64,000 bases of DNA, from sequence record LC494302.1. One strand, written 5' to 3'. This document shows, in pieces, positions 26,077 to 57,978 of this stretch. Source of the DNA: Escherichia phage SP27. The stretch's first letter is position 1. Every line of letters starts with the position of its first letter. A program made the position numbers and the translations under genes. Under the pieces are notes generated by a model that saw only the letters and a list, made by a program, of their open reading frames with translations, was not told the DNA's origin and did not search any database.

Positions 26077-26505
26077 ATGAATATCGAACAAACTATCCGT
26101 GAACATTCTTTCTTCGCTCCAGAAACTGGTCGTGTTATTGAGAGCGTCAAAATCGAAGAACTAATGGTCAATGTTAAATACAAAGAACCAAATGATGAGA
26201 TTAGCAGTACTTTTTGTGCTCTACGTGCACCATTCCGTAATGAAAAAGCTAAGAAACCAGCATATGTTCTTGCCATTGCACTGGGTTGTGTTGTAAAACT
26301 TGCAGTTGATGAAAATCTTCTGAATATTAAAGTTGCACCAAGCAATGACGATGAAAACATTGATTTGAACTTTGATGGTTCTCTTGATGAAGATGTATTT
26401 TTCCAACAGTCACTTGTTTACGACTTCCGTACAGTGACACATTCTCACATCAAGTTCATTAATGAAATGGTTGGGATTGTTGCTGAATACGAAGAATCTC
26501 TCTAA
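26077..26505 (+). CDS. FQxS C-terminal-module family paralog (hypothetical)
   Basis: C-terminal DEDVFFQQSLVYDF motif shared with about 20 other ORFs in the window. Confidence 0.55.
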   Translation: MNIEQTIREHSFFAPETGRVIESVKIEELMVNVKYKEPNDEISSTFCALRAPFRNEKAKKPAYVLAIALGCVVKLAVDENLLNIKVAPSNDDENIDLNFDGSLDEDVFFQQSLVYDFRTVTHSHIKFINEMVGIVAEYEESL

Positions 26506-27721: not shown

Positions 27722-28132
27722 ATGAGTTTAGATTTACACAATGAACTAAAATATTTTTTAGATTTGGATATATCAGAATTGAACCACCACGTCAATCATA
27801 TGACTAGTACTGTATGGTGGTCTAATGAACAAGACGACCCAATTATCCAACTAAGTGATGAATCGTCAATTATGCGATTTTATAAGATTAATTATAAAAA
27901 GAACATCAAGATCACATATGTACCATACAAAAACATACTACTAGTCGAAACACTTAATCCAAGTTCTTTATTAAAAATCACCGATTTAGATACATTACAA
28001 ACAAGTGAATCTTTATTCCAACGTTCATTAGTTGATGATCTTGGTGGTATTACTTTTGAAGATATATTACAATTGAAGAATATGTATAGTGAATTGTTGG
28101 AGATTAAAAACACTTTAGTAATGGGGAATTGA
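27722..28132 (+). CDS. FQxS-module family paralog
   Basis: C-terminal SESLFQRSLVDDLGGITFEDILQL. Confidence 0.55.
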   Translation: MSLDLHNELKYFLDLDISELNHHVNHMTSTVWWSNEQDDPIIQLSDESSIMRFYKINYKKNIKITYVPYKNILLVETLNPSSLLKITDLDTLQTSESLFQRSLVDDLGGITFEDILQLKNMYSELLEIKNTLVMGN

Positions 28133-28133
28133 T

Positions 28134-28538
28134 ATGGTAAGTTTACTAGATATTGATAATACCAGTTTAGTGCTGGTGAAAAAAGGTTTAATTCCAAATT
28201 CTAAAAAAATTGATTATGCTGTTATTGAAACAAATATTGGAAATATCTGGTACGACTCTGAAAGGGATATTGTGTTTAGCTGTGTAGACAGTGATCGTTC
28301 TGAATGTTGTAGAGTCGGTCATGACGGACAATTTGTTTTTGAATTTCGTTATTGGAAGGACGCAAAATTTCACCAAGAACTGGTTGCTTTGTCAAATGAA
28401 CTATATACAGAAGAATCGTTCTTCATGGCTAGTACTATTAATGATTTTGGTTCAGTTACATTTGAGTACTATAAAAAAATATACGCACTATCCAGAGAAG
28501 TTATGAAAATTATCAGAACTGCTGAAGGTAAAGAATAA
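28134..28538 (+). CDS. FQxS-module family paralog
   Basis: C-terminal TEESFFMASTINDFGSVTFE. Confidence 0.55.
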   Translation: MVSLLDIDNTSLVLVKKGLIPNSKKIDYAVIETNIGNIWYDSERDIVFSCVDSDRSECCRVGHDGQFVFEFRYWKDAKFHQELVALSNELYTEESFFMASTINDFGSVTFEYYKKIYALSREVMKIIRTAEGKE

Positions 28539-28539
28539 C

Positions 28540-28917
28540 ATGACTACTATATATGATATTTTGGGTGTTCTGAGTAGAAATATAGATGATGATTTTGTTA
28601 TTGTTCAAGATACTAGAAATACATTTCAACTACCAATAGGTTCACCAGATAGGTTAATTTTTAATAGATACTCAAATGAACTAACTTACATCCATGATGG
28701 AATTGCAATTGTATCAGTTTCTATAAACGACTATACAATACGATATGTATATGACTTCAACGATTATTGTACAAGAATCCACAGTATTGATATTTCCGAA
28801 GAGGAACTATTCCAATTGTCATTGATTGAGAAAAATGTAATAGGAATTACAGAAATTGGTATTATTAAAAAAGCATTAAACTATACAAATATAAGAATTA
28901 ATGGTGGGTGCAGATGA
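28540..28917 (+). CDS. FQxS-module family paralog
   Basis: C-terminal SEEELFQLSLIEKNVIGITE. Confidence 0.55.
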   Translation: MTTIYDILGVLSRNIDDDFVIVQDTRNTFQLPIGSPDRLIFNRYSNELTYIHDGIAIVSVSINDYTIRYVYDFNDYCTRIHSIDISEEELFQLSLIEKNVIGITEIGIIKKALNYTNIRINGGCR

Positions 28918-29369
28918 ATGTTGACGAAATAAAAAATCATTTTGAAATTGCAATGTCATGTGAATTTGACACACAACGTGTTCATGACCCGAAAGAACAT
29001 ATACGCATTTGTTGTGAATTGTCAGATGATTGTAATATTTTTATTGGAAAAACCTATGACATGATCGATCTTTCATGTATAGATCCATTGGAAAGAAAAA
29101 CAAAATATTTATATCTGTACAACACAACATCAGATACGATTGCAATACAACTAATATCAACCACAACATCCCAAAGTTATTATAACATAACTGAGGTTAG
29201 TAGTTTAACGTTAACCGAAGAAGGATTCTTTCAACAATCGCTTATTCGTGAAATTGGTGTTAGTTATGATGAGTTAAATGTATTAGTAGATTGTTTCGAA
29301 AAATTGAGTACTTTTGTATTATCCCTTTTTAATATACAGTCGCAAAATCCAATGGTGGTGAAATGCTAA
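28908..29369 (+). CDS. FQxS-module family paralog
   Basis: C-terminal TEEGFFQQSLIREIGVSYDE. Confidence 0.55.
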   Translation: MQMNVDEIKNHFEIAMSCEFDTQRVHDPKEHIRICCELSDDCNIFIGKTYDMIDLSCIDPLERKTKYLYLYNTTSDTIAIQLISTTTSQSYYNITEVSSLTLTEEGFFQQSLIREIGVSYDELNVLVDCFEKLSTFVLSLFNIQSQNPMVVKC

Positions 29370-29803
29370 ATCCAAGTAAATTTCTCCACTTACTTTCGAT
29401 AACATCAATACCGGATCTTACCAGTGAAACTAATGAATATCGTGAAGCTGGGGTGGTGTCTATGGAACTCGATACATTTGACCACAAATGCTATGTGACA
29501 TATGACCCACCCCGTTATGGTAAAGAACATTCTTCTTTTATTTTTGTATTCGTATACACTGTATATGATAATACAACACTTGATGATGTTTGTATTGACA
29601 CTTACGAAATTTGTGATAATATCATAACTGATGACAACAATAATTCATTTGATATGTCACTATATAACACAGAAGAATCGTTGTTTCAACTTAGTACTGT
29701 TATTGATGCACCATCATTAGAAGATATAAAACAATTTCAAGAACATCTTGACGCAGTTCGTGAGATGTTCTATAATCATTATCCAGAAGTAGAGTTCAAT
29801 TAA
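29363..29803 (+). CDS. FQxS-module family paralog
   Basis: C-terminal TEESLFQLSTVIDAPSLEDI. Confidence 0.55.
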   Translation: MLNPSKFLHLLSITSIPDLTSETNEYREAGVVSMELDTFDHKCYVTYDPPRYGKEHSSFIFVFVYTVYDNTTLDDVCIDTYEICDNIITDDNNNSFDMSLYNTEESLFQLSTVIDAPSLEDIKQFQEHLDAVREMFYNHYPEVEFN

Positions 29804-29817: not shown

Positions 29818-30078
29818 ATGACTAAAGTAGTTCGTAAACGCCACATGATGAACATGGATGAATTTCGCACATTTGACAAATATCGTACTATGTTTCGTAT
29901 GCTTTCACAGGGCCGTCCAATCGTCATTGTAACAGAGAATTACATGTCACCTGAGATTATGTTTGGTAATTATGAAAAGGTCTTCATGATGTACGTGAAG
30001 CGTGGATTACTTACAATCAAGACATTAGCTGAAGCAACTGATGAAGATATGGATGGTGATAATACCTTTACCATGTGA
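29818..30078 (+). CDS. hypothetical protein
   Basis: 86 aa ORF. Confidence 0.45.
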   Translation: MTKVVRKRHMMNMDEFRTFDKYRTMFRMLSQGRPIVIVTENYMSPEIMFGNYEKVFMMYVKRGLLTIKTLAEATDEDMDGDNTFTM

Positions 30079-30156: not shown

Positions 30157-30408
30157 ATGAGTGAACATAGTGCTGTGCTTAAAAAGATTTTAAAGGAACT
30201 TGATGGTGAGTTTAATGTCACAGAAGAAGAATATCAGCATTGGAAGAAAGGTTTTGAACAACTAACCGAGTATGATAAAGTGTTCAATATGATTGGCGTA
30301 ATTAGCCAGTACTTACTCGGTGGAGGACGTGCAAGTGCTTCAATTCTGGCATCTGCAATCATCTGTACATCACGATGGTGTGATGAAAAAAGTTTGGAAG
30401 ATTTCTAA
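30157..30408 (+). CDS. hypothetical protein
   Basis: ORF in the 30118 frame; start placed at a later ATG (MSEHSAVLKK...); a 25-aa acidic mini-ORF (30087-30164) overlaps upstream. Confidence 0.4.
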   Translation: MSEHSAVLKKILKELDGEFNVTEEEYQHWKKGFEQLTEYDKVFNMIGVISQYLLGGGRASASILASAIICTSRWCDEKSLEDF

Positions 30409-30460
30409 ATAAGATGCTATAATATATTATAGTACCTTAACAATATAAAAAGGATTTTAT

Positions 30461-31321
30461 ATGAAACCTATCCGAGTACTTTCTCTTTTTAATGGAATGA
30501 GTGTGGGATATATGGCATTGCAAGATGCTGGTATCCCAGTTGAAAAATATTATTCATCCGAAATTGATAAGTACGCAATAGCTGAATCTCAATCTAACTT
30601 TCCTGATATTATCCAATTGGGTGATGTAACTAAGTGGAGAGAATGGGATATTGAGTGGGACAAAATAGATTTATTAATGGGTGGTTTCCCATGCCAAGCC
30701 TGGTCAGTTGCAGGTAAACAGGGTGGTTTAAATGATATACGTGGGCAGTTATTTTTAGTAATGGTTGAAATTTTTGATCATATCAAAAGTCTCAATCCTA
30801 ACTTGAAATTTCTGTTTGAAAATGTTAAAATGAAGGAAGATTTCAAAGAATACATTAATAGTATTTTAGGAATCACGCCAGTACTGATAAACTCCCAGCA
30901 TTATACGCCTCACTTCAGGCAGAGATATTACTGGTACAGTACTGATAAGCTTTTCATACCACCTGCATTATCCAATGCACCTAAACTTCAAGATATTATT
31001 GAAGATGGTTGGTACACTGACAGAACCGCTTCGTACTGTATAGATGCTAACTATTTTAAAGGTGGTGATTGTAACCAGTACTTTAATAAATCCAGACGAC
31101 AATTGGTGTTTCGTGACCCAGTGATCAGTCGTCAATATCTATTAGAGAATGGCAAAAGAAATATTGACTATAGACACTTAAGTGTAGTAGAATGTTGTAA
31201 ATTACAGGGTGTTCCTGAAGATTTCTTTAAAGTGTCTAGTAAGACACAAGCATACAAAATGCTTGGGAATGGATGGACTATGCCAGTTATATCACATTTA
31301 CTAAGAGAGATATTCTTTTGA
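30461..31321 (+). CDS. dcm: DNA (cytosine-5)-methyltransferase
   Basis: Motif I LSLFNGMSVG, catalytic motif IV GGFPCQAWSVAGK, motif VI ENV, C-terminal MLGNGWTMPV: canonical C5-MTase order. Confidence 0.85.
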   Translation: MKPIRVLSLFNGMSVGYMALQDAGIPVEKYYSSEIDKYAIAESQSNFPDIIQLGDVTKWREWDIEWDKIDLLMGGFPCQAWSVAGKQGGLNDIRGQLFLVMVEIFDHIKSLNPNLKFLFENVKMKEDFKEYINSILGITPVLINSQHYTPHFRQRYYWYSTDKLFIPPALSNAPKLQDIIEDGWYTDRTASYCIDANYFKGGDCNQYFNKSRRQLVFRDPVISRQYLLENGKRNIDYRHLSVVECCKLQGVPEDFFKVSSKTQAYKMLGNGWTMPVISHLLREIFF

Positions 31322-31803
31322 ACATAAACAAATACCAAACTTATATAAAACGTACAGAAAGTTTCAAACGGCTGGCTGTAAAATCTGAATTAGAATTTAA
31401 TTTGTATTATCCTAATATTGGTGATGAGGTATTTTATTGCTCTCATTCAAAGAATGGAACTTTACTTAAATCGGGTAAAGGAACTATTGTTGATATGACC
31501 GCAAATTTCAGAGGTAAACTTAATGTAATGTACAAAGTACAAGATTCAAGTACTGAGTGTATTCATGAAGTGATGCATAACATACCTGCATATCCAAAAG
31601 ATTTTGTTCAGCTAATATCTCGAAGGGAGAAACCTATGTTTTATTGTGGTTACGACAAATTAACCAAACAAATTATTCCTAATACTATGGGAAAATTTAA
31701 AAGTGATGTGAAATCTGAACTTGAAAAGAAATTTGGCACGTCATGGGAAACTGAAAACGAGTTTATCGAAATTCGTTTAATTGAAATTACTATACTTGAA
31801 TAA
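31273..31803 (+). CDS. hypothetical protein
   Basis: 176 aa ORF overlapping the MTase 3' end; an in-frame TTG at 31318 is an alternative start. Confidence 0.45.
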   Translation: MDYASYITFTKRDILLNINKYQTYIKRTESFKRLAVKSELEFNLYYPNIGDEVFYCSHSKNGTLLKSGKGTIVDMTANFRGKLNVMYKVQDSSTECIHEVMHNIPAYPKDFVQLISRREKPMFYCGYDKLTKQIIPNTMGKFKSDVKSELEKKFGTSWETENEFIEIRLIEITILE

Positions 31804-31808
31804 TTACA

Positions 31809-31833
31809 AATCCACGCATTGCGTGGATTTTTC
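31809..31833 (+). terminator. rho-independent terminator
   Basis: aatccacgc att gcgtggatt plus ttt. Confidence 0.6.
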
Positions 31834-31845
31834 ATAGGTGCATAT

Positions 31846-32361
31846 ATGCCAATTCCTTATGTTAAAATTATTAATAATATTCTCGATTCATGGGAAGATG
31901 TTATTACTGGTAAAAAGAAACCATCACCAGTACATGCTTTATCTGGGAAACTTCAATTCAGAATGTCAAACCAAACTGAAACATTTAATAATCATGATAT
32001 TTGCATTACATTAAAAACACCTGTTAGTATTGTAATTAAAAAAAATAAAGATGATGAATTGACATTATCTATTGGTCGTGATAAAATCATTTTAAGTAAT
32101 TTGTCTGAAGAAGAATTCTTTCAAAGAAGTACTATTATCGATATGAAAGATTTCACATATGAATCATTGGTTGAACTCAATACACGTTTTAACGATATTC
32201 AGGAACGATTGCGACCAATTCTTCGTATCGAAGAAGAAGCCTGGATTGAAAGTATTAGGAAGATGCAAGAAATGTTGAAAGAAAATATTAACAATCTGGG
32301 TAAAGCTACAATGGAATTTGGTAAAACTTTTAAACTGAACTTTTCAAAGGATCGTAAATGA
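31846..32361 (+). CDS. FQxS-module family paralog
   Basis: SEEEFFQRSTIIDMKDFTYESL; start set at ATG 31846 downstream of terminator 31809-31833. Confidence 0.5.
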   Translation: MPIPYVKIINNILDSWEDVITGKKKPSPVHALSGKLQFRMSNQTETFNNHDICITLKTPVSIVIKKNKDDELTLSIGRDKIILSNLSEEEFFQRSTIIDMKDFTYESLVELNTRFNDIQERLRPILRIEEEAWIESIRKMQEMLKENINNLGKATMEFGKTFKLNFSKDRK

Positions 32362-32813
32362 AAATTGATAATTTGATTCATGTTTTAGGATCTTTACATA
32401 AAATATTATCACATCTACATGAGATAAAGAAACTGGGATTTAACATCTCAAATTCAATTGAAACTACATTTAAATATCAATCAATTACTGGTGATGGTTA
32501 TTACATAATCGAATATACTTATGAAACCGATCCAGACTTCTATCCTCTTACGTTGAGAATTTATCCAACAAATCCGAGAGGAATTCACGACATATCATCA
32601 ATTTCACTTGATCCAGATGGTGAAACGAGTATTGAATACAATAATGATTCAAAACCAGAATTTTACATTGATGATATTAAAATGATGTTCAACGATGAAT
32701 ATGTTTTCCAACAAAGTACTGTGCATGATGTTGGAAGTACTAATGGACAATTTTGGAATACATGTTATTATCATATGATTGAAATTTGTAAATTATTAAA
32801 AGGCGATGATTAA
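32358..32813 (+). CDS. FQxS-module family paralog
   Basis: C-terminal NDEYVFQQSTVHDVGS. Confidence 0.5.
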   Translation: MKIDNLIHVLGSLHKILSHLHEIKKLGFNISNSIETTFKYQSITGDGYYIIEYTYETDPDFYPLTLRIYPTNPRGIHDISSISLDPDGETSIEYNNDSKPEFYIDDIKMMFNDEYVFQQSTVHDVGSTNGQFWNTCYYHMIEICKLLKGDD

Positions 32814-33196
32814 TGAAATACAGCATTGAAGTACATTACACTACAGGGGACACTGAAACTGAAGATTCAGTTACCAATACATTGGATGTTCAATGGGAAT
32901 CAAAGGATGAGGCAGTTGTAGCATTACAGTCTTTGAAAGAGCATTGGGTATTCTTTAAGAAACTCGATGATGCATATAGTAACGAACGTGCGACAATAAT
33001 CGATGAAGCCAAACATAAAGAATGGTTTGATCCAATGTCATGTGAATTCTCTTTCTTTGTAAAAATTGGAGATGAAAAAATTCCAGTACGTACACCGTGG
33101 AACGGCTACTTTGAAACTCTTCATAATGCACGAGTTGTCGCTGTTGATAATCCTGAACAAATCGATTTCGATTCATTGGACTGGAAAAAACTATGA
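32813..33196 (+). CDS. hypothetical protein
   Basis: 127 aa ORF. Confidence 0.45.
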   Translation: MKYSIEVHYTTGDTETEDSVTNTLDVQWESKDEAVVALQSLKEHWVFFKKLDDAYSNERATIIDEAKHKEWFDPMSCEFSFFVKIGDEKIPVRTPWNGYFETLHNARVVAVDNPEQIDFDSLDWKKL

Positions 33197-33636
33197 CAGT
33201 ACTGCACCAATTGAAGAAGGTTAAGCATCCAGTTGTATATGAGGACTGGAAACGTCAGAAGCTGATGGGTGATTTTTATTTCCCAAAATCTAAAGTACTA
33301 GCAACGTCAAAAGCTATATACTTGAAATATAAGGATGAAGATTGTTTGTGTATTCAAATGGGATTCCATCCTAAAGTTGGTTTGTTTACAACAAATCAAA
33401 CATTTTATAAATTTAGAATTCAAAAAGATACATTTAGTATTCATATCGAAAAGCATGATGTACAAGATACAATTTATCGTGTGGAAAGTGAGCCTTTGAA
33501 TCTTGTTGAGATTCCGTACAATAATTTAGAAGAAATGTACTTTCAGCAGTTGACAATACAAGAAGACTTTGGTATGATAGGACTTCAAGAGTTAGAGATG
33601 ATTAAACAAATTCGTGATATCTACTTTAAGGAGTAA
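33193..33636 (+). CDS. FQxS-module family paralog
   Basis: C-terminal LEEMYFQQLTIQEDFGMIGLQELE. Confidence 0.5.
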   Translation: MTVLHQLKKVKHPVVYEDWKRQKLMGDFYFPKSKVLATSKAIYLKYKDEDCLCIQMGFHPKVGLFTTNQTFYKFRIQKDTFSIHIEKHDVQDTIYRVESEPLNLVEIPYNNLEEMYFQQLTIQEDFGMIGLQELEMIKQIRDIYFKE

Positions 33637-48786: not shown

Positions 48787-49128
48787 ATGAACTTAAGTTC
48801 AACAATTCAGTACTTGAGCAGTAACTTCGAGAAAATTATTTCTCGCGGTGGGATGATTGTACACCCAGAAACAGAGGAAATGTACATCATTGGATTTGAT
48901 AAAAATTCTTATGATCAAGTACTTGTAATTTCCAAGTTAGAAAGTTATAATGAAGTTGTTCAGTTTTGCTGTACCGAATTTGGTATCTATATTAAAGACG
49001 CTGAAACTAATACAATTTCGCATTATTTTTACCACACACTGATGGGTACTAAAGACTTCGGCTTGAAGTTCGATGATTTAGTACAATGTCACTATATGTT
49101 TAAAACCTTCCCAGCTAGTGGGCATTAA
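48787..49128 (+). CDS. hypothetical protein
   Basis: 113 aa ORF. Confidence 0.5.
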   Translation: MNLSSTIQYLSSNFEKIISRGGMIVHPETEEMYIIGFDKNSYDQVLVISKLESYNEVVQFCCTEFGIYIKDAETNTISHYFYHTLMGTKDFGLKFDDLVQCHYMFKTFPASGH

Positions 49129-49141
49129 GGAGTATATCAAT

Positions 49142-49930
49142 ATGAGCAACATTTTCTTCAAAACTATTTCTTTCAAAAAAGCATCTTACTCCTACGCCTA
49201 CGTTGATGGTAAAGTGCTTAATATTGTACTGGATGGTGTTGACGTACCAGTTGAATTTAAAACACATGAAGAAGCAGTTGAAGGTGCTAAAGAATTGAAT
49301 TCAATTCTTAATGGTGAAGTAAGTCAAAAACAACATGTAAAATCTGATTTAGATGTACTTTTGGAAAAAATCAAAACTGGTGAAGTATTAGAAATTTTAG
49401 ACAACTGTAATGAAAAACTTCGTAATGTAGTTAATAATGTTCGTGACCAGATTCAAGAAAAAGCACTAGAGCAAGCATTCAAACATGTATCCAAGAATGC
49501 TGAATCTCGTATTGACGGTATGGTTAAAAATCTTGATGATGTACTATCTCATCTCTTTACTAAAGAATACGAACAAGAAGTTGAAGAAGAACCAGTAAAA
49601 GAAACTAAAAAAGAAAAACGTAGCTTTGGCTCAGGTGATGATGTGTTTGGTTTTACGAATGTCAGAACAAGTGCAGATGAACCAAAAGAAATTAGTGAGA
49701 TGCTCATTGGTGACATGACAACTAAGCAGCTTCGTAATGAAATTGACAAGTTTGTAACTAGTTGTATCAAATCAGAACGTGCACAAAGTATGTTTAAAAG
49801 CATTAGTGAGAACTTTGGTCCAGAAGCAACTGAGCAGGCACTAACTGCATTTAAAGAATTGATTTATAATGTAGCCATTAGCAATCCAGATAAAACACTT
49901 GAAGAAGTTCTACGTGACAATTTCAAATAA
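49142..49930 (+). CDS. hypothetical protein
   Basis: TAAGGAG RBS then ATG 49142; acidic, Lys/Glu-rich. Confidence 0.5.
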   Translation: MSNIFFKTISFKKASYSYAYVDGKVLNIVLDGVDVPVEFKTHEEAVEGAKELNSILNGEVSQKQHVKSDLDVLLEKIKTGEVLEILDNCNEKLRNVVNNVRDQIQEKALEQAFKHVSKNAESRIDGMVKNLDDVLSHLFTKEYEQEVEEEPVKETKKEKRSFGSGDDVFGFTNVRTSADEPKEISEMLIGDMTTKQLRNEIDKFVTSCIKSERAQSMFKSISENFGPEATEQALTAFKELIYNVAISNPDKTLEEVLRDNFK

Positions 49931-49942
49931 TTAGATAAAATT

Positions 49943-49972
49943 AAAGCCACTACAATGTAGTGGCTTTTTTTA
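49943..49972. terminator. bidirectional terminator between convergent genes
   Basis: aaagccacta caatg tagtggcttttttt; A-run on one side, T-run on the other. Confidence 0.6.
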
Positions 49973-51127
49973 TTATGCGTTGTAACCAACTATTACGACT
50001 GAGCAGTCAAGCGGTTCTACTACTTTAAGAATTACATTATCATCTTCATCCACTTGTATTTCACTATGAACTACATGATTGTCTGAAGAATATAATTGAA
50101 CTTGTGGTAGTGCTTTACCATGTTCAGTTACTGGAACTGAGATAGAGTACATAGAGTCTTCACCGAGAACCCACTCACTTAAAGTATATTCTTTATGGAA
50201 AGGAGTAGTATGCAGTGTTTTTCCGATTATACTCAAAGAAACAGGTAAATTATCAGTTTGATACACAGTAATATTACCTTCTGCGTCTACAGAAAGATCT
50301 ACACCAACTTGATATAAGTCACCACTGTATGCTTGAAGTGCTAAGTACTGTCCACGATCATGAACATCAAATGGAACAACCGCAGAAAATACACCTTCCG
50401 AAACAGGTTCAAATTGGGATAGAAGAACTGATGTAACAAAATCAATATCCTCACCACTTTCAAGAACATCAAATTCCACCACTTTAGTGTTATAATATGG
50501 AGAAGTGAGCGTAGCAGTACCTTTCCCTGATTGTGTGATAACATCAACTGGAATTGTAAATGCATCATTAACAAATTGGGTAGTAAAGTATTCTGTCCCG
50601 TCTGGTAATACGATTGTTATTACCATACCGTTAGTATCAATTTCTGAACCAGTGTTGAATAATTTACCACTAATTGAGTCATTACCAACAAATACTGGTG
50701 AAATGAGAATATTATCTATATCACGATCTATAATACCACATTCAGGTGTATACATATGATACAAGGTTTGTGAACTACCTAAAATTGTTTTATGTAGCAT
50801 AAATTTATATACAAATCCAGTATCAGTTTCTTGTGGCTCTTCAGAATATCCACGAACAAAGAAACAATTTTTATTAATTTCACTTAATAGTTGGTCATTA
50901 GTTTTATTGTAATTTAATATATAACCTTTATTATCTTTAGTTGTTATTTGTACTTTACGATATATTATATTAGTTCTTGGATCAACTAAATCATATAATC
51001 TATGGCTTCTTTGGCGATAGATTCTAATATTTTTTAGTCTAGTTCCATCGTTGAGGATTGCACCATCAACAACATAACCACATTCACCAAACTTATAGCG
51101 TCCAGCCGCAGCAATTGACCTTGACAT
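49973..51127 (-). CDS. hypothetical protein (384 aa); only minus-strand gene in the window
   Basis: Long minus-strand ORF converging on a bidirectional terminator at 49943-49972; rich in Thr/Ser/Val/Gly, beta-rich-looking. Confidence 0.55.
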   Translation of the reverse strand: MSRSIAAAGRYKFGECGYVVDGAILNDGTRLKNIRIYRQRSHRLYDLVDPRTNIIYRKVQITTKDNKGYILNYNKTNDQLLSEINKNCFFVRGYSEEPQETDTGFVYKFMLHKTILGSSQTLYHMYTPECGIIDRDIDNILISPVFVGNDSISGKLFNTGSEIDTNGMVITIVLPDGTEYFTTQFVNDAFTIPVDVITQSGKGTATLTSPYYNTKVVEFDVLESGEDIDFVTSVLLSQFEPVSEGVFSAVVPFDVHDRGQYLALQAYSGDLYQVGVDLSVDAEGNITVYQTDNLPVSLSIIGKTLHTTPFHKEYTLSEWVLGEDSMYSISVPVTEHGKALPQVQLYSSDNHVVHSEIQVDEDDNVILKVVEPLDCSVVIVGYNA

Positions 51128-51187
51128 TTATCCCTCCATTGGTATAATTATTATAACGTATTTATTATGCATATCCAAAAAATGAGC

Positions 51188-51216
51188 TTGACTGGTGTAT
51201 GATTTGGTGTTATCAT
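51188..51216 (+). promoter_or_regulatory. sigma70-like promoter (TTGACT-N17-TATCAT)
   Basis: ttgactggtgtatgatttggtgttatcat. Confidence 0.4.
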
Positions 51217-51243
51217 GTAGTGAATGAATAATGAGGTGTTTTT

Positions 51244-51828
51244 ATGAATGTTATTGATAATAGATTAGTACTGAAAAATGGAAAAATGACTGTTAAGTTA
51301 TATAAAGATGAAGCTGATTCTTTTATGGCAAAAGCGATTGAAAAATCAGAACGATATAAACTTTTGGCTCCAGCAAGTAAATCGCCATATGGTTTTAATC
51401 ATGCACATAGTCATTTTGTTGGTATGGTGTGTGAGCACGCATCTTTAGTACTTTTTAATGAAATTGAAAACAATACTGGTATTAAACTTAATATCGATCC
51501 AGCATTCCAAAATGAAGCACGTGACGGTGAATGTGATATTAAGGTAAACAACCTTCGTATTGAAGTAAAAGGTATCAAGTATAAATCATGGACTGACTTT
51601 GGACCATGTGTTAGTACTCGACAGTTAAAAAATATCCAGAAAAAAGCTGACGTAATACTATGGGTATTGTATAATGAGAAAAAACAAGAGTTCACGTTTG
51701 AGGGATTCAACTATGTAAAAGATATTAGTTCTATCCCAGTTATCCTCACTGGTGTACCAGGGCGACCAATGATTGAAAATCACCCAGTACTCGGTATTAT
51801 GAAACCACTACAGGAGTTACCATTGTGA
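51244..51828 (+). CDS. hypothetical protein
   Basis: 194 aa ORF after promoter 51188-51216. Confidence 0.5.
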   Translation: MNVIDNRLVLKNGKMTVKLYKDEADSFMAKAIEKSERYKLLAPASKSPYGFNHAHSHFVGMVCEHASLVLFNEIENNTGIKLNIDPAFQNEARDGECDIKVNNLRIEVKGIKYKSWTDFGPCVSTRQLKNIQKKADVILWVLYNEKKQEFTFEGFNYVKDISSIPVILTGVPGRPMIENHPVLGIMKPLQELPL

Positions 51829-52052
51829 TTACTGCAACTGTATATCAAGATATCAATGAAGAATTTCATTCTAAAATTGCGTTCTTATCATTTCCTGTAC
51901 TCCCAGTAGTTGGGTCAACGTTGAATCTTACCATTTGTGGGTTTGAGAAATATTATAAAGTTCTAGATATTGAGTACTGTGCTGATGTATATTCATGTAA
52001 TAGTGAAATTGCAATTCCAGTATCAATCGATATTATTGTAAAAGAGGTTTGA
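51825..52052 (+). CDS. hypothetical protein
   Basis: 75 aa ORF. Confidence 0.45.
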   Translation: MITATVYQDINEEFHSKIAFLSFPVLPVVGSTLNLTICGFEKYYKVLDIEYCADVYSCNSEIAIPVSIDIIVKEV

Positions 52053-52510
52053 TTATGTTTAAGAATTTTATGGTTATCGTAGCAGTACTGTTTGGTACAT
52101 CATGTTTTATTTCCCCAGTACACGCAGAAGAACAACGTCAAACTATTAAAACTATTGGGACTGGTAAAACTCCCCCTAAACGTACTGCTGACGAATACAT
52201 GCCTGAAATGCGTGAACGTTATCGTCAGACATACAGGGAAAAACATGCTAATGATAAACCCATCAAGAAGCATAAATGGGAAGTTGTTAAATCTCCTTCA
52301 TTTTGTGCTGGATATGCTAAAGTAAAGATTGAGCAGCACAAAAACCAGTACTATAAAGATATGTATTACTTCTATGACTCCAGAATTTCTGACACAGATA
52401 TGATGGCAGGGAAGGTTGATAAAGAAGAATTTCTACAAGGCTATGATATGATGGACGATGACAAAATCATGGAATGCGTTGAAGTGTATGAAAAATACAG
52501 AGGCTTCTGA
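52049..52510 (+). CDS. secreted/periplasmic protein (signal peptide)
   Basis: N-terminal MIMFKNFMVIVAVLFGTSCFISPVHA is signal-peptide-like. Confidence 0.5.
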   Translation: MIMFKNFMVIVAVLFGTSCFISPVHAEEQRQTIKTIGTGKTPPKRTADEYMPEMRERYRQTYREKHANDKPIKKHKWEVVKSPSFCAGYAKVKIEQHKNQYYKDMYYFYDSRISDTDMMAGKVDKEEFLQGYDMMDDDKIMECVEVYEKYRGF

Positions 52511-52986
52511 TGTTAACAATAGTGTTGTTGGTAAGTCCATTTGTGTATTTTGTGCTGTATAATATTTTTAGTAATGCTAATCATTTTAAATATGCACAAA
52601 CAATTGCAAAGCATGAAGGTTTTTGGAATTTTTTCCCAGCATTACTATGCTCATATCTATACCATGAACGCTATTTCATTTTTCCTGAATATAAAAATTA
52701 TGGTTATGATTCTAAAGTAAATGGTATAATTGAGTACTGTATAAGAAATTATCTTAATAATAATGATAACGTCCAAGTAAGAATAGGAAATGGTAATATA
52801 TCAAGAATAGTTTTCATACCTGATATACAAGATCCAATATACTTATATCCATATGATTATAGTATTAGTGTAGGTTGTTCGATACATGGTAGTAAATCTA
52901 TGTACGATTACTTTATCTTACCACCAACACAAATTAGATTAATAGAAAAATATTTGAGGGAAAAGTTTGACAACAAAGATTCTTAG
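52510..52986 (+). CDS. membrane-anchored protein
   Basis: N-terminal hydrophobic helix LTIVLLVSPFVYFVLY. Confidence 0.45.
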   Translation: MLTIVLLVSPFVYFVLYNIFSNANHFKYAQTIAKHEGFWNFFPALLCSYLYHERYFIFPEYKNYGYDSKVNGIIEYCIRNYLNNNDNVQVRIGNGNISRIVFIPDIQDPIYLYPYDYSISVGCSIHGSKSMYDYFILPPTQIRLIEKYLREKFDNKDS

Positions 52987-53027
52987 TATTATAATTAACA
53001 CACCAAGTAACCCAAGGGGGATGGAAA

Positions 53028-53486
53028 ATGGATGTATTAGCTACAAATTTCAAACGTAATGTTGAAGAGCGTGAAGGTTATTTTAGTATTAGTGAAGTTG
53101 TCGATGACAATTTTAAACAATACATTTTTAATAGTGCAATTAAATTAAAATGCACAAAAGATTCACCTGATCGTAGCTTTACTAAATGGATTGCGTATTG
53201 GGAAGATTCACCAGTTGCAATTGAAATGACTGTGATTACAACAGTACTTGAAACTGGTTACATCAAAGCCATTATAGTTGATAAGAAAGTCCGTACTCTT
53301 GATGAAATTAATCCATATCCAGCCCGAAATTCTAAAGTTTTTGGTGTATTGGTTGATGGTAAATTTATGATAGAAAAAGATGCAAAGGAATATGTAATTA
53401 ATAAACTTCAAACTACAGCAGAAAAAAAAGAAGTAGTGGATCAAAACTCAGTTGATGCAATCAAAAAAGCATGGGGACTAAAGTGA
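53028..53486 (+). CDS. hypothetical protein
   Basis: 152 aa ORF after GGGGGA RBS. Confidence 0.5.
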   Translation: MDVLATNFKRNVEEREGYFSISEVVDDNFKQYIFNSAIKLKCTKDSPDRSFTKWIAYWEDSPVAIEMTVITTVLETGYIKAIIVDKKVRTLDEINPYPARNSKVFGVLVDGKFMIEKDAKEYVINKLQTTAEKKEVVDQNSVDAIKKAWGLK

Positions 53487-53487
53487 T

Positions 53488-53910
53488 ATGTTCACACTAA
53501 GTAATGCAAAATATCTTTTTCTTATTGGTATTATTGGTTGGGTTATGGCTCCAGTGCTAAATGCACTGGGGTTTTCCGATGAACATAAACTTGTAAATGT
53601 TTCAGGTTTAATTCAGGGTATTTCATGGTATACATTAATTACATTTTCAGTGTGCATCAATACATTTGCCCGTGATTATCGACGTTTGTTATATCTGAAA
53701 GTATTTGGAACTACACGATATAGTTTTGTTTACACTTTCATTTTATTACCGTGCATGTTATATGCATTTGTATTTGATTACTATACATATCTATGGGTAT
53801 GTGGAACTATGTTTGTTATGTTGGAATACATCAGAACTGTTCAAAACTCATATGCCGATGAGTTTCATGATCTAGAAGTTAAACGAAAATTAACGGAGCT
53901 AAACAAATGA
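53488..53910 (+). CDS. multi-pass membrane protein
   Basis: Several hydrophobic helices. Confidence 0.5.
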   Translation: MFTLSNAKYLFLIGIIGWVMAPVLNALGFSDEHKLVNVSGLIQGISWYTLITFSVCINTFARDYRRLLYLKVFGTTRYSFVYTFILLPCMLYAFVFDYYTYLWVCGTMFVMLEYIRTVQNSYADEFHDLEVKRKLTELNK

Positions 53911-54332
53911 GAGGCTATAATAAGATTTGTATTTTTGTATTTTTAGTTTGTGCATTCAATTCGTTTGGTTACTACTGTACAGAAAATAATATTTCATATG
54001 GTTTAAATCCTTTGTGGTTTACAATTTCCAATGTAGCACAAATTGGTATTGCTCTTATGTCTGCACTTATGTTCTGTCCAATTGTCACTATGGATACGGA
54101 TCATGAAAGGCTTGGATTTCTCCGTGATACTGGAGACGAACCTTACAGTAGATTGATTGTGTTGTATCCATTTATTGTTATTTTAGGTACTAACATCCAA
54201 CTTGGGTCATTATCTAATAGTGTTACATCAGCAGCTATTGCTATATTTGCATTCACATTTTTTATGGTACACAAATCAGTACTTAATTGGTATATCACAA
54301 AAATGGCAGAAGAAGGTACTAAAAATACTTGA
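53907..54332 (+). CDS. multi-pass membrane protein
   Basis: Several hydrophobic helices. Confidence 0.5.
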   Translation: MRGYNKICIFVFLVCAFNSFGYYCTENNISYGLNPLWFTISNVAQIGIALMSALMFCPIVTMDTDHERLGFLRDTGDEPYSRLIVLYPFIVILGTNIQLGSLSNSVTSAAIAIFAFTFFMVHKSVLNWYITKMAEEGTKNT

Positions 54333-54358
54333 CATAATTTAGTATGTTATATATAATT
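54329..54358 (+). promoter_or_regulatory. sigma70-like promoter
   Basis: ttgacataatttagtatgttatatataat. Confidence 0.45.
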
Positions 54359-54391
54359 ATTTTGTTAAAAACAAATTAGAGTAAGGAACTT

Positions 54392-54643
54392 ATGAACATC
54401 GATACGGTCAAAGAACTTAGTGCTGCACTAATTAAGAATGAAGAAGTTTGTGAAGAACTTCGCAGTACTATCAAAGTTGAGTACGCACGACTCCAAGGTA
54501 TGCTTCAAGAATCAGAATGGGTAGTAACTAAATCTATCGAAGCAATCTATAAGGATATCGAATCCCTTTTCAACAAGAAAAGTAAGATTGAATCTGATTC
54601 ATATAACAAACGTAAAGAGTTATCTACTGCACTTGGTATCTAA
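54392..54643 (+). CDS. hypothetical protein
   Basis: 83 aa ORF after promoter 54329-54358. Confidence 0.45.
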   Translation: MNIDTVKELSAALIKNEEVCEELRSTIKVEYARLQGMLQESEWVVTKSIEAIYKDIESLFNKKSKIESDSYNKRKELSTALGI

Positions 54644-54649
54644 AAGTAT

Positions 54650-54678
54650 TTGACATAACAAATAATATGGAGTACAAT
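54650..54678 (+). promoter_or_regulatory. sigma70-like promoter (TTGACA-N17-TACAAT)
   Basis: ttgacataacaaataatatggagtacaat. Confidence 0.5.
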
Positions 54679-54717
54679 GTGCTCCTAATTTAATTATCAG
54701 CTAGAAAGGAAAACATT

Positions 54718-54978
54718 ATGAAATCTATTCTCGTTGCAGTTAACCTAGTTGCTTCCCCATCTTTCAACTTCAAACAAGTGGTTGCTGATAATCTGAAGAA
54801 GATCTGTCCAAACGCTGAATTAACTTTCTGTGTGTTTGATTCAGAAAAAGTAACTAAAGTTGATCTAAACTATCTTTTGAACGAAGTAAAAAGCGTTTCT
54901 GGTGAAAGTAACTTAAAAGTTCTTCATGATATTGCTGATGATTATGATGATACACTTGTAATTTCGGAGAAATTCTAA
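54718..54978 (+). CDS. hypothetical protein
   Basis: 86 aa ORF after promoter 54650-54678. Confidence 0.45.
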   Translation: MKSILVAVNLVASPSFNFKQVVADNLKKICPNAELTFCVFDSEKVTKVDLNYLLNEVKSVSGESNLKVLHDIADDYDDTLVISEKF

Positions 54979-54983
54979 ATAAA

Positions 54984-55403
54984 ATGTTTAGATTTCTTCA
55001 GTACTTAATCATTAAATTTTTTGGCTATTATACGATTGAAGGCAAAGCTACACTCGCACATAGAATCTTTGTAGCATTATGTACGGGTGATTATGACGTA
55101 TTGAATAAGTACTGTAAATCTAAAGCATGTATTGATATAATGGCACTTCGTATCTATGAGTGCCGTTCCAATAGATACAATTTTTACCAATACAGATTTG
55201 ATGAAAAAGAATTTGATAGCATCAAAATGCTTAAGAATTTATGTAACAATAAAAAGAATATGCATATATCAGAATTTGTTGCTTTGTATTTTTATTTAAA
55301 AAGTTCATTGTATATGAACACAATGCAAAGATTCGATACTAGAATTAATGTATTCACCGATAAAGAATTTTATATATACGATAAATTCTTAGATAAGGTT
55401 TAA
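54984..55403 (+). CDS. hypothetical protein
   Basis: 139 aa ORF. Confidence 0.45.
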   Translation: MFRFLQYLIIKFFGYYTIEGKATLAHRIFVALCTGDYDVLNKYCKSKACIDIMALRIYECRSNRYNFYQYRFDEKEFDSIKMLKNLCNNKKNMHISEFVALYFYLKSSLYMNTMQRFDTRINVFTDKEFYIYDKFLDKV

Positions 55404-55404
55404 T

Positions 55405-55902
55405 ATGACAACTGTTTATATTGATAAACGATTAAATTTATTGATTACCGATTCTAGAGTTACGTCAACTATACCACGAAACTTATTTGGTTTTTTCCCA
55501 CTAAGACCAAAATATCAATATGGAGTTGTTAATCAAAAAACTTTATATGTACATGACCGTTTATTCAGTGCTAGTGGGGTAGTAAGTGAAATTGATAAAG
55601 TACTGGATTGGTTAATTAATAAAGTACCAGTTATACCTGACAGAAAGTTAAGTTGCCATTGTGTGCTTCTTTCTAAAGATTATGTTATTCATATGATTTT
55701 AACTAAAGGAAAGTTTATTAAAAAACTTGAATATCTACATGAAGACTACACTTTCTTTATGGGAAGTGGTGGAGAATACATGCTAGATGCTGCTATTCAT
55801 GAAGAACATACAACTTTATATGATAAAGTGTTTAGTACTTTCATGGATGTGCACAACCATGATTGCTTCACAGATGATAATATTAATGTATATCGATTTT
55901 GA
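55405..55902 (+). CDS. hypothetical protein
   Basis: 165 aa ORF. Confidence 0.45.
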   Translation: MTTVYIDKRLNLLITDSRVTSTIPRNLFGFFPLRPKYQYGVVNQKTLYVHDRLFSASGVVSEIDKVLDWLINKVPVIPDRKLSCHCVLLSKDYVIHMILTKGKFIKKLEYLHEDYTFFMGSGGEYMLDAAIHEEHTTLYDKVFSTFMDVHNHDCFTDDNINVYRF

Positions 55903-55923
55903 TTTCGTCATTAGGAGATGTAA

Positions 55924-56889: not shown

Positions 56890-56896
56890 AGAACAA

Positions 56897-56923
56897 GGGT
56901 TGGCTTATGCCAACCTTTTTTTT
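56897..56923 (+). terminator. rho-independent terminator after the sigma factor gene
   Basis: gggttggc ttat gccaacc plus tttttttt. Confidence 0.65.
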
Positions 56924-56943
56924 ATGGGATGAAGTAAAAGTTT

Positions 56944-56952
56944 GTGATATAA
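56944..56952 (+). promoter_or_regulatory. extended -10 promoter element reading into an ORF-free segment
   Basis: tgtgatataat immediately after terminator 56897-56923. Confidence 0.35.
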
Positions 56953-57447
56953 TTATCTTGTACAATTCTGTTGGCATGATATTCATGTACCTGATCCACT
57001 CGAAAACGTAGAGGGCAGTTGAGCAGTCCGACAGTGCGAACAGCAAAAGAAACCCGTTAGATGTGGGCATAGTTTGAACCCCTCACGGCAATGCGGCTGT
57101 ATAAAGAACCACGTTAGGATAGCTGGTGGTTCCTTGATAGACATATAAGGATAACACCTTACGAATTATCTAAGGGAGAGTTATCGAATTTTGTACAGGA
57201 AAGTTGCGTCCAAAATTTGAGTACTCACATTAAGTATTTGATTGCATAGATACTTAATGAAGATACACTATGTTTAAAAGTGTAGACCGTCATATGAAAC
57301 TGAAGTAGAGAGAAACAGGATGACCCGCTTTCGCACTCGTTATGAGTAATCTTCAATGCAATAGCTCTGATACCATCAGCGTCAAATTTCCCTCCTTGTG
57401 GGGGGAAGAAAAATCCCTTCCTCAAATCCCGTCAATATTAAAAGTCC

Positions 57448-57476
57448 TTGACAGTTATTAATCATTCGCGTAGAAT
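57448..57476 (+). promoter_or_regulatory. sigma70-like promoter (TTGACA-N17-TAGAAT)
   Basis: ttgacagttattaatcattcgcgtagaat. Confidence 0.45.
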
Positions 57477-57540
57477 ACGTAGTATTAGAAGCGAACAGAC
57501 ATCTCGAAGAGATGGATGATTAACCATTAAGGAATATCAA

Positions 57541-57977: not shown

Positions 57978-57978
57978 A

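What the first reader, a model, noticed from the sequence alone, without database searches (positions are those of the whole stretch)
30461..31321. Orphan C5-cytosine methyltransferase with no adjacent restriction endonuclease
All canonical C5-MTase motifs are present, but neither neighbour looks like a restriction enzyme. It is likely an anti-restriction self-methylase. Its target specificity is unknown.
Basis: partly seen in the sequence, partly recalled or inferred. Interest (0 to 1): 0.5.

Follow-up and report, generated by a model that had tools for sequence, protein, structure and literature searches.

The report
Orphan cytosine methylase of jumbo phage
The gene is a real, intact DNA cytosine-C5 methyltransferase with no partner restriction enzyme. 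It is already annotated and discussed in the published genomes of this jumbo coliphage group, so it is ordinary apart from its close resemblance to the animal enzyme DNMT3.

Summary
The ORF at 30461-31321 (+, 286 aa) is real. It is a full-length C5-cytosine methyltransferase (Pfam PF00145, E=7.5e-38) and keeps the catalytic Cys78, the ENV motif and the RxR motif.

The window is an Asteriusvirus jumbo coliphage (121Q/PBECO4/phAPEC6, 99.8% identity). The protein is 99.7% identical to 121Q gp91 and 100% identical in PBECO4, phAPEC6 and other records. These records already annotate it as a DNA cytosine methyltransferase, and published genome papers already interpret it as protective methylation.

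No restriction enzyme was detectable among nine flanking ORFs or among the window's large ORFs. The neighbouring genes differ between phage genera. Relatives in bacterial genomes sit among prophage and mobile-element genes.

Nothing links the enzyme to AGTACT. That hexamer is nonetheless 7-fold over-represented and conserved across this phage clade, which remains unexplained.

The parts
30394..30423 (+). Sigma-70-like promoter candidate, TTGGAA-18 nt-TATAAT with a TG extended -10. It lies 38 nt upstream of the ATG.
   Evidence: 10 of 12 matches, TG present. The number of such sites in this AT-rich region is not above the shuffled expectation, so this is only suggestive. The orthologous CBB gene lies in the predicted early region rich in RpoD-like promoters (PMC5259590).
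30450..30454 (+). Shine-Dalgarno sequence AAGGA, 6 nt before the ATG.
   Evidence: Read directly from the sequence.
30461..31321 (+). Coding sequence of the C5-cytosine DNA methyltransferase, 286 aa. It is the orthologue of 121Q gp91 (AIT13988.1, 99.7% aa); PBECO4 and phAPEC6 encode the identical protein.
30485..30508 (+). Motif I, LFNGMSVG (AdoMet-binding loop, in the FxGxSxG form seen in DNMT3).
   Evidence: F10, G12 and S14 are invariant in 40 homologues. The motif aligns to LFDGIATG of DNMT3.
30680..30706 (+). Motif IV, GGFPCQAWS. The catalytic nucleophile Cys78 is at nt 30692-30694.
   Evidence: G75, P77 and C78 are invariant.
30809..30826 (+). Motif VI, FLFENV (Glu120 protonates N3 of the cytosine).
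   Evidence: The role of the Glu comes from established C5-MTase mechanism.
30911..30934 (+). Motif VIII, HFRQRYYW (R153 and R155).
   Evidence: Position 151 is Q in 30 of 40 homologues and H here, as in RaK2.
30938..31168 (+). Compact target-recognition domain, aa 160-236. Its family-invariant cores are DRxxSYCIDANYxKGG and QYxxKSRRQxV.
   Evidence: C193, A196, Y198, K200, K210, R212 and R213 are invariant. K200 aligns with the DNMT3 TRD-loop position R836 (3A) / K777 (3B).
31169..31225 (+). Motif IX, YRHLSVVECCKLQGVPEDF.
   Evidence: R238, L240 and E244 are invariant.
31259..31303 (+). Motif X, MLGNGWTMPVISHLL.
   Evidence: G269, N270 and G271 are invariant.
31318..31803 (+). Downstream ORF, the 121Q gp92 homologue, 161 aa. 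Its TTG start overlaps the methyltransferase stop codon; some records use the ATG at 31273 instead. Function unknown. It is probably co-transcribed and is not shown to belong to the system.
   Evidence: Only four homologue clusters exist, all in Asteriusvirus-like phages. It has no Pfam or PADLOC hit. The AlphaFold2 model has pLDDT 52 and is uninformative.
31808..31832 (+). Intrinsic-terminator-like hairpin, AAATCCACGC-ATT-GCGTGGATTT followed by a run of T. It lies right after the gp92 stop codon and would close a two-gene unit.
   Evidence: RNA folding gives -13.4 kcal/mol, z = -5.4. Two related GenBank records list a 'terminator' among the features under the 2.6-kb match (H8, H20); its exact position was not checked.

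Best explanation
The gene encodes an active, solitary (orphan) AdoMet-dependent DNA cytosine-C5 methyltransferase of an Asteriusvirus jumbo phage.

Proposed mechanism:
- It is probably transcribed early by the host RNA polymerase, from a sigma-70-like promoter, as a short unit with one downstream ORFan.
- The enzyme binds AdoMet through motif I, E34 and D55.
- It flips the target cytosine out of the helix. Cys78 attacks C6, Glu120 protonates N3, R153 and R155 hold the base, and the methyl group is transferred to C5.
- A compact, DNMT3-like target-recognition domain reads a short site. The most likely site is CpG or a short CpG-containing sequence.
- Replicating phage DNA is methylated before packaging. 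On the next infection the incoming genome resists restriction enzymes that are blocked by m5C.

What is shown here: the ORF, the motifs, the fold, the orphan context and the conservation. What is inferred: the enzymatic activity, the early timing, the protective role and the CpG target.
For: - Intact enzyme. Pfam 131 bits. All catalytic residues are invariant across 40 homologues. The protein is 99-100% identical in about 20 independent phage isolates and 75-78% identical in GAP32, CBB, XbC2 and Erwinia phages. The model is confident, pLDDT 93.
- Orphan status. Nine flanking ORFs have no Pfam, PADLOC or functional PHROG hit. No nuclease family was found among the window's 25 largest other ORFs. 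The neighbours differ in K64-1/RaK2, CBB and phi92. In 80 bacterial or MAG loci, the flanking genes of relatives include integrases, a terminase, other methyltransferases, Mom and antirepressors, with no type II restriction-enzyme family.
- Not host-derived. There is no match in 5,426 E. coli genomes.
- Early unit. A promoter-like site and a terminator-like hairpin flank the two genes. The CBB orthologue lies in the predicted early region.
- CpG. The RaK2 paper PMC3622015 reports, as data not shown, that bisulfite analysis found methylated CpG and that the DNA was cut only by methylation-insensitive enzymes. RaK2 gp194 is the full-length, 64%-identical orthologue with a conserved TRD core. The invariant K200 aligns with DNMT3A R836 / DNMT3B K777. 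CpG is depleted two-fold at synonymous sites.
- The same interpretation is published for phAPEC6, CBB and Sharanji.
Against: - There is no experimental methylation data for any Asteriusvirus. The RaK2 evidence is 'data not shown', the sentence is garbled in the paper, and it does not assign the mark to gp194.
- The polarised substitution spectrum (window, fEgEco12, with Turkey5 as outgroup) shows no clear CpG hypermutability: C>T at NCG is 0.085, against 0.092 at NCT.
- The CBB locus shows no CpG depletion, with observed/expected of 0.99.
- CG-containing palindromes (GCGC 0, CCGG 0.18, CGCG 0.24) are the most strongly avoided tetramers. If all CpG were protected by methylation, such avoidance would seem unnecessary.
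- Members of this genus were isolated on E. coli K-12 MG1655. From my own knowledge, that strain carries McrA, McrBC and Mrr, which restrict m5CpG DNA. Heavy CpG methylation would therefore require an unidentified inhibitor.
- phi92-like phages carry a homologue yet are 'exceptionally susceptible' to the restriction-modification systems tested (PMC8594841). None of those systems has a CG-containing site, however.
- The promoter call is not above chance in this AT-rich DNA.
Confidence: 0.72

Rival explanations
1. The methyltransferase serves something other than escape from restriction. Possibilities include epigenetic control of phage transcription, replication or packaging, marking of phage against host DNA for a phage nuclease, or methylation of the host chromosome during takeover.
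For: The phage already avoids most GC-containing palindromes: 19 of the 24 hexamer palindromes with four G/C are absent and GCGC is absent. Methylation therefore adds little against many type II enzymes. The gene sits in an early, host-takeover-type region. phi92-like phages carrying a homologue remain sensitive to restriction-modification systems.
Against: There is no positive evidence for any regulatory site. The family is spread across unrelated phages and prophages, which fits a generic portable defence-evasion gene better than lineage-specific regulation. The published view is protection.
Confidence: 0.15
2. The target is the cytosine of AGTACT or GTAC, the hexamer that is hugely over-represented in this genome.
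For: AGTACT occurs 153 times against about 22 expected. It is found in all reading frames and in intergenic DNA, is evenly spread, and is conserved between related phages at 71% against 39% for control hexamers. A site that cannot be avoided would need protection.
Against: The TRD residues are invariant across a family present in phi92 and in 42 bacterial or MAG loci that show no AGTACT enrichment. The one experimental hint in the clade is CpG methylation, and the C of AGTACT is followed by T. An A-m5C site would also be a McrBC substrate (my own knowledge).
Confidence: 0.07
3. It is half of an unrecognised phage-borne restriction-modification or toxin-antidote pair, with the translationally coupled downstream ORF (31318-31803) as a novel nuclease.
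For: The start of the downstream ORF overlaps the methyltransferase stop codon. The two genes are bracketed by a promoter-like site and a strong hairpin. The ORF has no detectable homology to anything known.
Against: The ORF is confined to Asteriusvirus-like phages, with only four clusters. The methyltransferase is conserved in RaK2, K64-1, CBB and GAP32, where the downstream genes are different. No nuclease motif or family was found. The structure prediction was uninformative, pLDDT 52.
Confidence: 0.04
4. It is an RNA (tRNA) m5C methyltransferase of the DNMT2 type that acts on the phage's many tRNAs, not on DNA.
For: One GenBank record (Turkey5) labels the orthologue 'DNMT2'. Related genomes carry tRNA genes nearby. 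The family-invariant C193-x4-Y198 loosely resembles the DNMT2 'CFTxxY' motif; this resemblance is recalled from memory and was not tested.
Confidence: 0.02

Closest known systems
Annotated orthologues in Rak2-like jumbo phages: 121Q gp91 (AIT13988.1), the PBECO4 and phAPEC6 C5-methyltransferases, RaK2 gp194 (AFA44467.1), K64-1 gp237, CBB_399 and its GAP32 homologue
   Same: It is the same gene. The protein is 99.7-100% identical to the 121Q, PBECO4 and phAPEC6 proteins, 75-78% to those of CBB, GAP32, XbC2 and Erwinia phages, and 64% to RaK2/K64-1. It has the same position in an array of small early genes. The published interpretation is the same, protective methylation.
   Different: Nothing of substance differs. 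In motif IV, RaK2 has PCT where this protein has PCQ, and RaK2 carries an 8-residue insertion after it.
Catalytic domain of eukaryotic de novo methyltransferases DNMT3A, 3B and 3C (for example PDB 6U8P, 5YX2, 8TCI)
   Same: These are the best sequence and structure matches among all solved structures, end to end and including the short target-recognition domain. Motif I has the same FxGxxxG form. The size is similar, about 285 aa. A basic residue, K200, occupies the aligned position of the CpG-reading TRD-loop residue. The target is possibly the same, CpG.
   Different: Identity is only 26-30%. The phage protein is a single domain without PWWP or ADD regulatory modules. Motif X is the bacterial GNG rather than GRS. 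There is no evidence for the DNMT3 dimer or tetramer interfaces. The CpG specificity is unproven.
M.HhaI (GCGC) and M.HaeIII (GGCC), the textbook bacterial type II C5-methyltransferases
   Different: The phage gene has no partner endonuclease. Its TRD is shorter and differs in sequence. GCGC is entirely absent from the phage DNA, so an HhaI-like specificity would have no target in the phage. The HaeIII label comes from an annotation pipeline and is not evidence of GGCC specificity.
CpG-specific prokaryotic methyltransferases M.SssI and M.MpeI (PDB 4DKJ, 8C56)
   Same: They may share the target dinucleotide, and they are also solitary enzymes without a cognate endonuclease (my own knowledge).

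Membership tests
C5-cytosine DNA methyltransferase (Pfam PF00145; NCBIfam TIGR00675 dcm superfamily) | Profile score above the curated cut-off | tested here: met
   PF00145 scores 131.2 bits against 22. TIGR00675 scores 119.2 bits against 100.65.
C5-cytosine DNA methyltransferase (Pfam PF00145; NCBIfam TIGR00675 dcm superfamily) | Motif IV Pro-Cys dipeptide carrying the catalytic nucleophile | tested here: met
   GGFPCQ, with Cys78 at nt 30692-30694. P77 and C78 are invariant in 40 homologues.
C5-cytosine DNA methyltransferase (Pfam PF00145; NCBIfam TIGR00675 dcm superfamily) | Motif VI ENV and motif VIII RxR | tested here: met
   E120-N121-V122, R153 and R155 are all invariant. The Q of QxRxR is H here.
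C5-cytosine DNA methyltransferase (Pfam PF00145; NCBIfam TIGR00675 dcm superfamily) | Motif I AdoMet loop (FxGxG) plus the acidic motif II residue | tested here: met
   F10-N-G12-M-S14-V-G16, the DNMT3-type FxGxSxG variant, and E34.
C5-cytosine DNA methyltransferase (Pfam PF00145; NCBIfam TIGR00675 dcm superfamily) | Linear motif order I to X, with the variable target-recognition domain between VIII and IX | tested here: met
   Motif coordinates. The fold matches DNMT3B over 263 residues at rmsd 2.3.
C5-cytosine DNA methyltransferase (Pfam PF00145; NCBIfam TIGR00675 dcm superfamily) | Forms 5-methylcytosine in DNA | not testable with these tools
   The only evidence is an indirect literature note on the related phage RaK2.
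Orphan (solitary) phage methyltransferase | No cognate restriction endonuclease encoded next to it | tested here: met
   Nine flanking ORFs have no Pfam, PADLOC or functional PHROG hit. No nuclease family was found among the 25 largest other ORFs of the window. A completely novel nuclease cannot be excluded: the gp92 model was uninformative.
Orphan (solitary) phage methyltransferase | The methyltransferase is conserved while its neighbours change | tested here: met
   The flanking genes differ in Asteriusvirus, RaK2/K64-1, CBB and phi92. The downstream ORF is limited to four clusters.
DNMT3 family (eukaryotic de novo DNA methyltransferases) | Catalytic domain closest to DNMT3 among known structures | tested here: met
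DNMT3 family (eukaryotic de novo DNA methyltransferases) | N-terminal chromatin-reading modules (PWWP, ADD) and eukaryotic origin | tested here: not met
   The protein is a 286-aa single domain encoded by a phage. It therefore resembles the DNMT3 catalytic domain but is not a member of the family.
DNMT3 family (eukaryotic de novo DNA methyltransferases) | CpG specificity read by the TRD loop (R836 in 3A; N779 and K777 in 3B) | tested here: inconclusive
   The invariant K200 aligns with R836/K777 in two HMMER alignments, but G202 aligns with N779. The TRD alignment is gapped and of low confidence. The roles of these residues are recalled from the DNMT3-DNA structure papers and were not tested here.
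DNMT2 / TRDMT1 tRNA cytosine-38 methyltransferases | Closest similarity to DNMT2, and the CFT target-recognition motif | tested here: not met

The most novel reading that the evidence does not exclude
This phage protein represents a very large, TRD-invariant family of phage and prophage orphan methyltransferases that may be the closest non-eukaryotic relatives of the DNMT3 catalytic domain and may methylate CpG. If so, it would be a natural 286-aa minimal CpG methylase. It could bear on where the animal de novo methyltransferases came from, and it would mean that jumbo coliphages carry vertebrate-style m5CpG DNA while growing on McrBC-positive E. coli, which would imply an unknown inhibitor of type IV restriction.
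Probability: 0.3. Interest if true: 0.55.

Novelty: already known. Interest (0 to 1): 0.2.

Why it matters
As it stands, it matters little. The gene is annotated in dozens of GenBank records, and its presumed protective role is stated in at least four genome papers.

Its residual value is as a lead. A compact DNMT3-like enzyme whose clade has a bisulfite report of m5CpG would be a convenient minimal CpG methylase. It would also be a handle on how these jumbo phages tolerate the methylation-dependent restriction systems of E. coli K-12.

The genome-wide sequence biases seen alongside it are the more unusual observations: AGTACT is 7-fold enriched and conserved, and GCGC is totally absent. These deserve their own follow-up.

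Tried and rejected
1. Inferring the target from a deamination signature. I aligned the window to fEgEco12 and Turkey5 (37.5 kb pairwise, 21 kb three-way). Polarised C>T rates were not elevated at CpG relative to CpT. The raw unpolarised excess at YpG (0.36 against 0.18-0.24) is confounded by CpG depletion, and it disappears at synonymous sites. I rejected this as evidence either way. Only a two-fold synonymous CpG deficit remains, and it is absent in the CBB locus.

2. Inferring the target from site avoidance. ACGT is the only CG-containing palindrome not avoided. This is suggestive of nothing firm.

3. Guilt by association with restriction enzymes next to bacterial relatives. No restriction-enzyme families were found, only phage and mobile-element genes.

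4. Source names for homologues and NCBIfam gave only generic or pipeline labels such as HaeIII, HpaII and DNMT2.

5. Structure of the downstream ORF as a test for a hidden nuclease. The alignment has only 5 sequences and the model has pLDDT 52, so I did not search with it.

6. The afdb50 fold library was unavailable. The BFVD viral library gave only generic methyltransferase hits.

7. Literature searches found nothing beyond RaK2 on methylomes of these phages, on the ICP1 homologue, or on AGTACT.

8. A host origin was rejected: there is no match in E. coli genomes.

Full report
**Observation.** An AAGGA ribosome-binding site lies 6 nt upstream. The ORF matches Pfam PF00145 (C-5 cytosine DNA methylase) at 131 bits against a cut-off of 22, and the NCBIfam dcm superfamily model above its cut-off. 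I located every conserved block:

- Motif I, LFNGMSVG.
- Motif II, E34.
- Motif III, D55.
- Motif IV, GGFPCQ, with the catalytic Cys78 at nt 30692-30694.
- Motif VI, ENV (aa 120-122).
- Motif VIII, with R153 and R155.
- Motif IX (aa 237-255).
- Motif X, GNG (aa 269-271).

In an alignment of 40 homologues of 50-86% identity, these catalytic residues are all invariant. There are two small departures from the textbook bacterial pattern. Motif I is FxGxSxG, the form found in DNMT3, and the Q of QxRxR is H. The AlphaFold2 model is confident (pLDDT 93.2, pTM 0.90).

**What the window is.** The 2.6 kb around the gene is 99.8% identical to Escherichia phages IA-38, SHEFM2K and phAPEC6, and 99.1-99.7% identical to slurp01, 121Q, G17, Sharanji and PBECO4. 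These are Asteriusvirus jumbo myoviruses of about 350 kb. The protein is 99.7% identical to 121Q gp91 (AIT13988.1) and 100% identical in PBECO4, phAPEC6 and about ten other records. Most annotated records already call it a DNA (cytosine) methyltransferase. It is 75-78% identical in Cronobacter phage GAP32, Pectobacterium phage CBB, Xanthomonas phage XbC2 and Erwinia phages. It is 64% identical over its full length to K64-1 gp237, which equals RaK2 gp194. It has no counterpart in 5,426 complete E. coli genomes.

**What is already published.** The phAPEC6 paper states that the N6-adenine and C5-cytosine methyltransferases suggest 'protective DNA methylation' (PMC7247149). The CBB, RaK2 and Sharanji papers say the same. 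The finding and its interpretation are therefore already in the literature.

**Is it an orphan?** Nine ORFs flanking the gene gave no Pfam hit above noise, no PADLOC defence-system hit, and only PHROGs of unknown function. The 25 other ORFs of at least 190 aa in the window encode replication and takeover functions: type II topoisomerase subunits, a clamp loader, a sigma factor, a UvrD-like helicase, TelA and a nucleotidase. None is a nuclease family.

The immediate neighbours are not conserved with the methyltransferase. Asteriusvirus, RaK2/K64-1, CBB/GAP32 and phi92 each have different small genes on either side.

The downstream ORF (31318-31803) starts inside the methyltransferase stop codon, so it is probably translationally coupled. 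It exists only in Asteriusvirus-like phages, with four protein clusters in a database of 5.8 billion. A shallow-alignment structure prediction was too poor to use (pLDDT 52).

Relatives of the methyltransferase in 80 bacterial or MAG loci are flanked by integrases, a terminase, N6/N4 methyltransferases, Mom, antirepressors, replication-organiser proteins and helicases. No type II restriction-enzyme family appeared among the families found. Orphan status is therefore well supported at the level of the gene, the clade and the family. The usual caveat applies: a wholly novel nuclease would not be seen.

**Expression.** A TTGGAA-18-TATAAT promoter-like site with a TG extended -10 lies at 30394-30423. 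A strong hairpin followed by a run of T lies at 31808-31832, immediately after the downstream ORF (-13.4 kcal/mol, z = -5.4). The two genes thus look like one short unit. The promoter call alone is not above chance in this AT-rich DNA. However, the orthologous CBB gene lies in the region that its authors predict to be early on the basis of RpoD-like promoters. Early expression is inferred, not shown.

**What it resembles.** The nearest solved structures are not the bacterial type II enzymes but the catalytic domains of eukaryotic DNMT3C, 3A and 3B.

| Comparison | DNMT3 | Bacterial enzymes |
|---|---|---|
| phmmer E-value, single sequence | about 3e-23, aligned end to end (residues 2-282) | about 7e-18 for M.HaeIII and M.HhaI |
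| Family profile, bits | 127 (3B), 123 (3A) | 112 M.HhaI, 99 M.HaeIII, 50 M.MpeI (CpG-specific) |
| Foldseek against PDB | top 50 all DNMT3, TM about 0.8 | none in the top 50 |

The resemblance includes the short target-recognition domain (TRD). It is a resemblance and not membership. The phage protein is a single domain without PWWP or ADD modules, and identity is only 26-30%.

**Target specificity.** The TRD contains residues that are invariant across the whole 50%-identity family: C193, A196, Y198, K200, K210, R212 and R213, within SYCIDANYxKGG and KSRRQ. The family probably shares one short target.

The only experimental clue is in the RaK2 paper. [quoted passage not shown] Both results are data not shown. 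RaK2 encodes two putative methyltransferases, gp194 and gp447. gp194 is the orthologue of the protein studied here.

In two independent HMMER alignments, the invariant K200 falls on the DNMT3 TRD-loop position R836 (3A) / K777 (3B). From my memory of the DNMT3-DNA structures, that position contacts the CpG guanine or its flank. The alignment there is gapped, so I count this as weak support.

Sequence statistics do not settle the matter. At synonymous sites CpG is about two-fold depleted: the C fraction of third-position pyrimidines is 0.13 before G and about 0.25 otherwise. But a polarised three-genome comparison shows no CpG-specific excess of C>T, and the CBB locus has no CpG deficit.

I put the probability of a CpG or CG-containing target at about 0.45-0.5. 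One caveat comes from my own knowledge. E. coli K-12 carries McrA, McrBC and Mrr, which attack m5CpG DNA, yet slurp01 and Sharanji were isolated on MG1655. Heavy methylation would need an inhibitor or a site context that escapes these enzymes.

- AGTACT occurs 153 times in the window against about 22 expected, making it among the two most enriched hexamers (7.0-fold; its overlap CAGTAC/GTACTG is 7.9-fold).
- It is biased toward CAGTACTG.
- It occurs in all three reading frames (59, 23 and 45 copies) and in intergenic DNA (25 copies).
- It is evenly spread along genes.
- It is 6- to 10-fold enriched in every Rak2-like phage stretch examined: 121Q, fEgEco12, Turkey5, K64-1, RaK2 and CBB.
- Individual sites are conserved far more than composition-matched hexamers: 71% against 39%, and 61% against 26%.
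- In the same genomes GCGC is completely absent: 0 copies in about 184 kb, against about 150 expected.
- 19 of the 24 hexamer palindromes with four G/C are missing from the window.

None of this tracks the methyltransferase family. phi92 and 42 bacterial or MAG loci with family members show no AGTACT excess and have normal GCGC counts. I therefore see no evidence that AGTACT is the target. The signature is recorded as a separate open observation.

**Verdict.** The gene is a genuine, intact, orphan C5-cytosine DNA methyltransferase. It most likely methylates phage DNA before packaging, so that the next host's m5C-sensitive restriction enzymes cannot cut it. What is added here is:

- the DNMT3-like architecture;
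- the family-wide invariance of the recognition domain;
- the link to the RaK2 CpG report;
- the family-level orphan, mobile-element context;
- a probable two-gene transcription unit.

Interest is low (0.2). The most novel reading still open is a DNMT3-like minimal CpG methylase carried by phages that grow on Mcr-positive hosts. I give it about a 0.3 probability, and it would be of moderate interest if true.

Noticed in passing
Whole window 1-64000; also L001, L002, L003, L004, L085, L086: AGTACT is about 7-fold over-represented (153 copies against about 22 expected), with a bias toward CAGTACTG. It occurs in all reading frames and in intergenic DNA, and is evenly spread. It is 6- to 10-fold enriched in every Rak2-like jumbo phage checked. 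Sites are conserved at 71% against 39% for same-composition control hexamers. It is not enriched in phi92 or in bacterial loci carrying the same methyltransferase family. Its function is unknown.
   Followed up: partly
Whole window; also L001-L004, L085, L086: GCGC is totally absent: 0 copies in the window against about 49 expected, and 0 in about 120 kb of related phage sequence. CCGG and CGCG are 4- to 5-fold depleted. Of the 24 hexamer palindromes with four G/C, 19 are absent. ACGT, CATG and TGCA are not avoided. This is a very strong palindrome-avoidance signature.
   Followed up: partly
26077-26505, 27722-29803, 31846-33636, 61509-62027: At least ten tandem ORFs of 125-172 aa share a motif in the C-terminal third, (E/D)(E/S)x(F/L/V)F(Q/M)x(S/L)(T/L/S)(I/V), for example EEGFFQQSLI. 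This is a paralogous family of unknown function, and the methyltransferase gene is embedded in it. It has no Pfam or PADLOC hits.
   Followed up: partly
31318-31803 (alternative ATG at 31273): The ORFan downstream of the methyltransferase has a start that overlaps the methyltransferase stop codon. It is found only in Asteriusvirus-like phages (four clusters). The structure prediction was uninformative (pLDDT 52). GenBank records disagree on its start codon.
   Followed up: partly
31808-31832: A perfect 10-bp hairpin, AAATCCACGC-ATT-GCGTGGATTT, is followed by a run of T (-13.4 kcal/mol, z = -5.4). It is likely an intrinsic terminator closing the methyltransferase-gp92 unit. The pattern scan listed it only on the minus strand.
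   Followed up: yes
Window coding regions, about 10.5-50.6 kb: CpG is about two-fold depleted at synonymous positions. The C fraction of third-position pyrimidines is 0.13 before G and about 0.25 otherwise. The G fraction of third-position purines is 0.11 after C and 0.21-0.27 otherwise. There is no matching excess of C>T at CpG in a three-genome polarised comparison.
   Followed up: yes
23-23635 and 49118-63371: The large ORFs in the window encode type II topoisomerase subunits (GyrA-like and GyrB/Toprim-like), a clamp-loader AAA+ protein, a sigma-70-family factor, a UvrD-like helicase fragment, TelA, an NT5C nucleotidase and a 3'-5' exonuclease. 112 of 115 called genes are on the plus strand.
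   Followed up: no
29748-29776: This is the best sigma-70-like promoter match in the local region: TTGACG-17-TATAAT, 11 of 12. It lies just upstream of the 86-aa ORF at 29818-30078.
   Followed up: no
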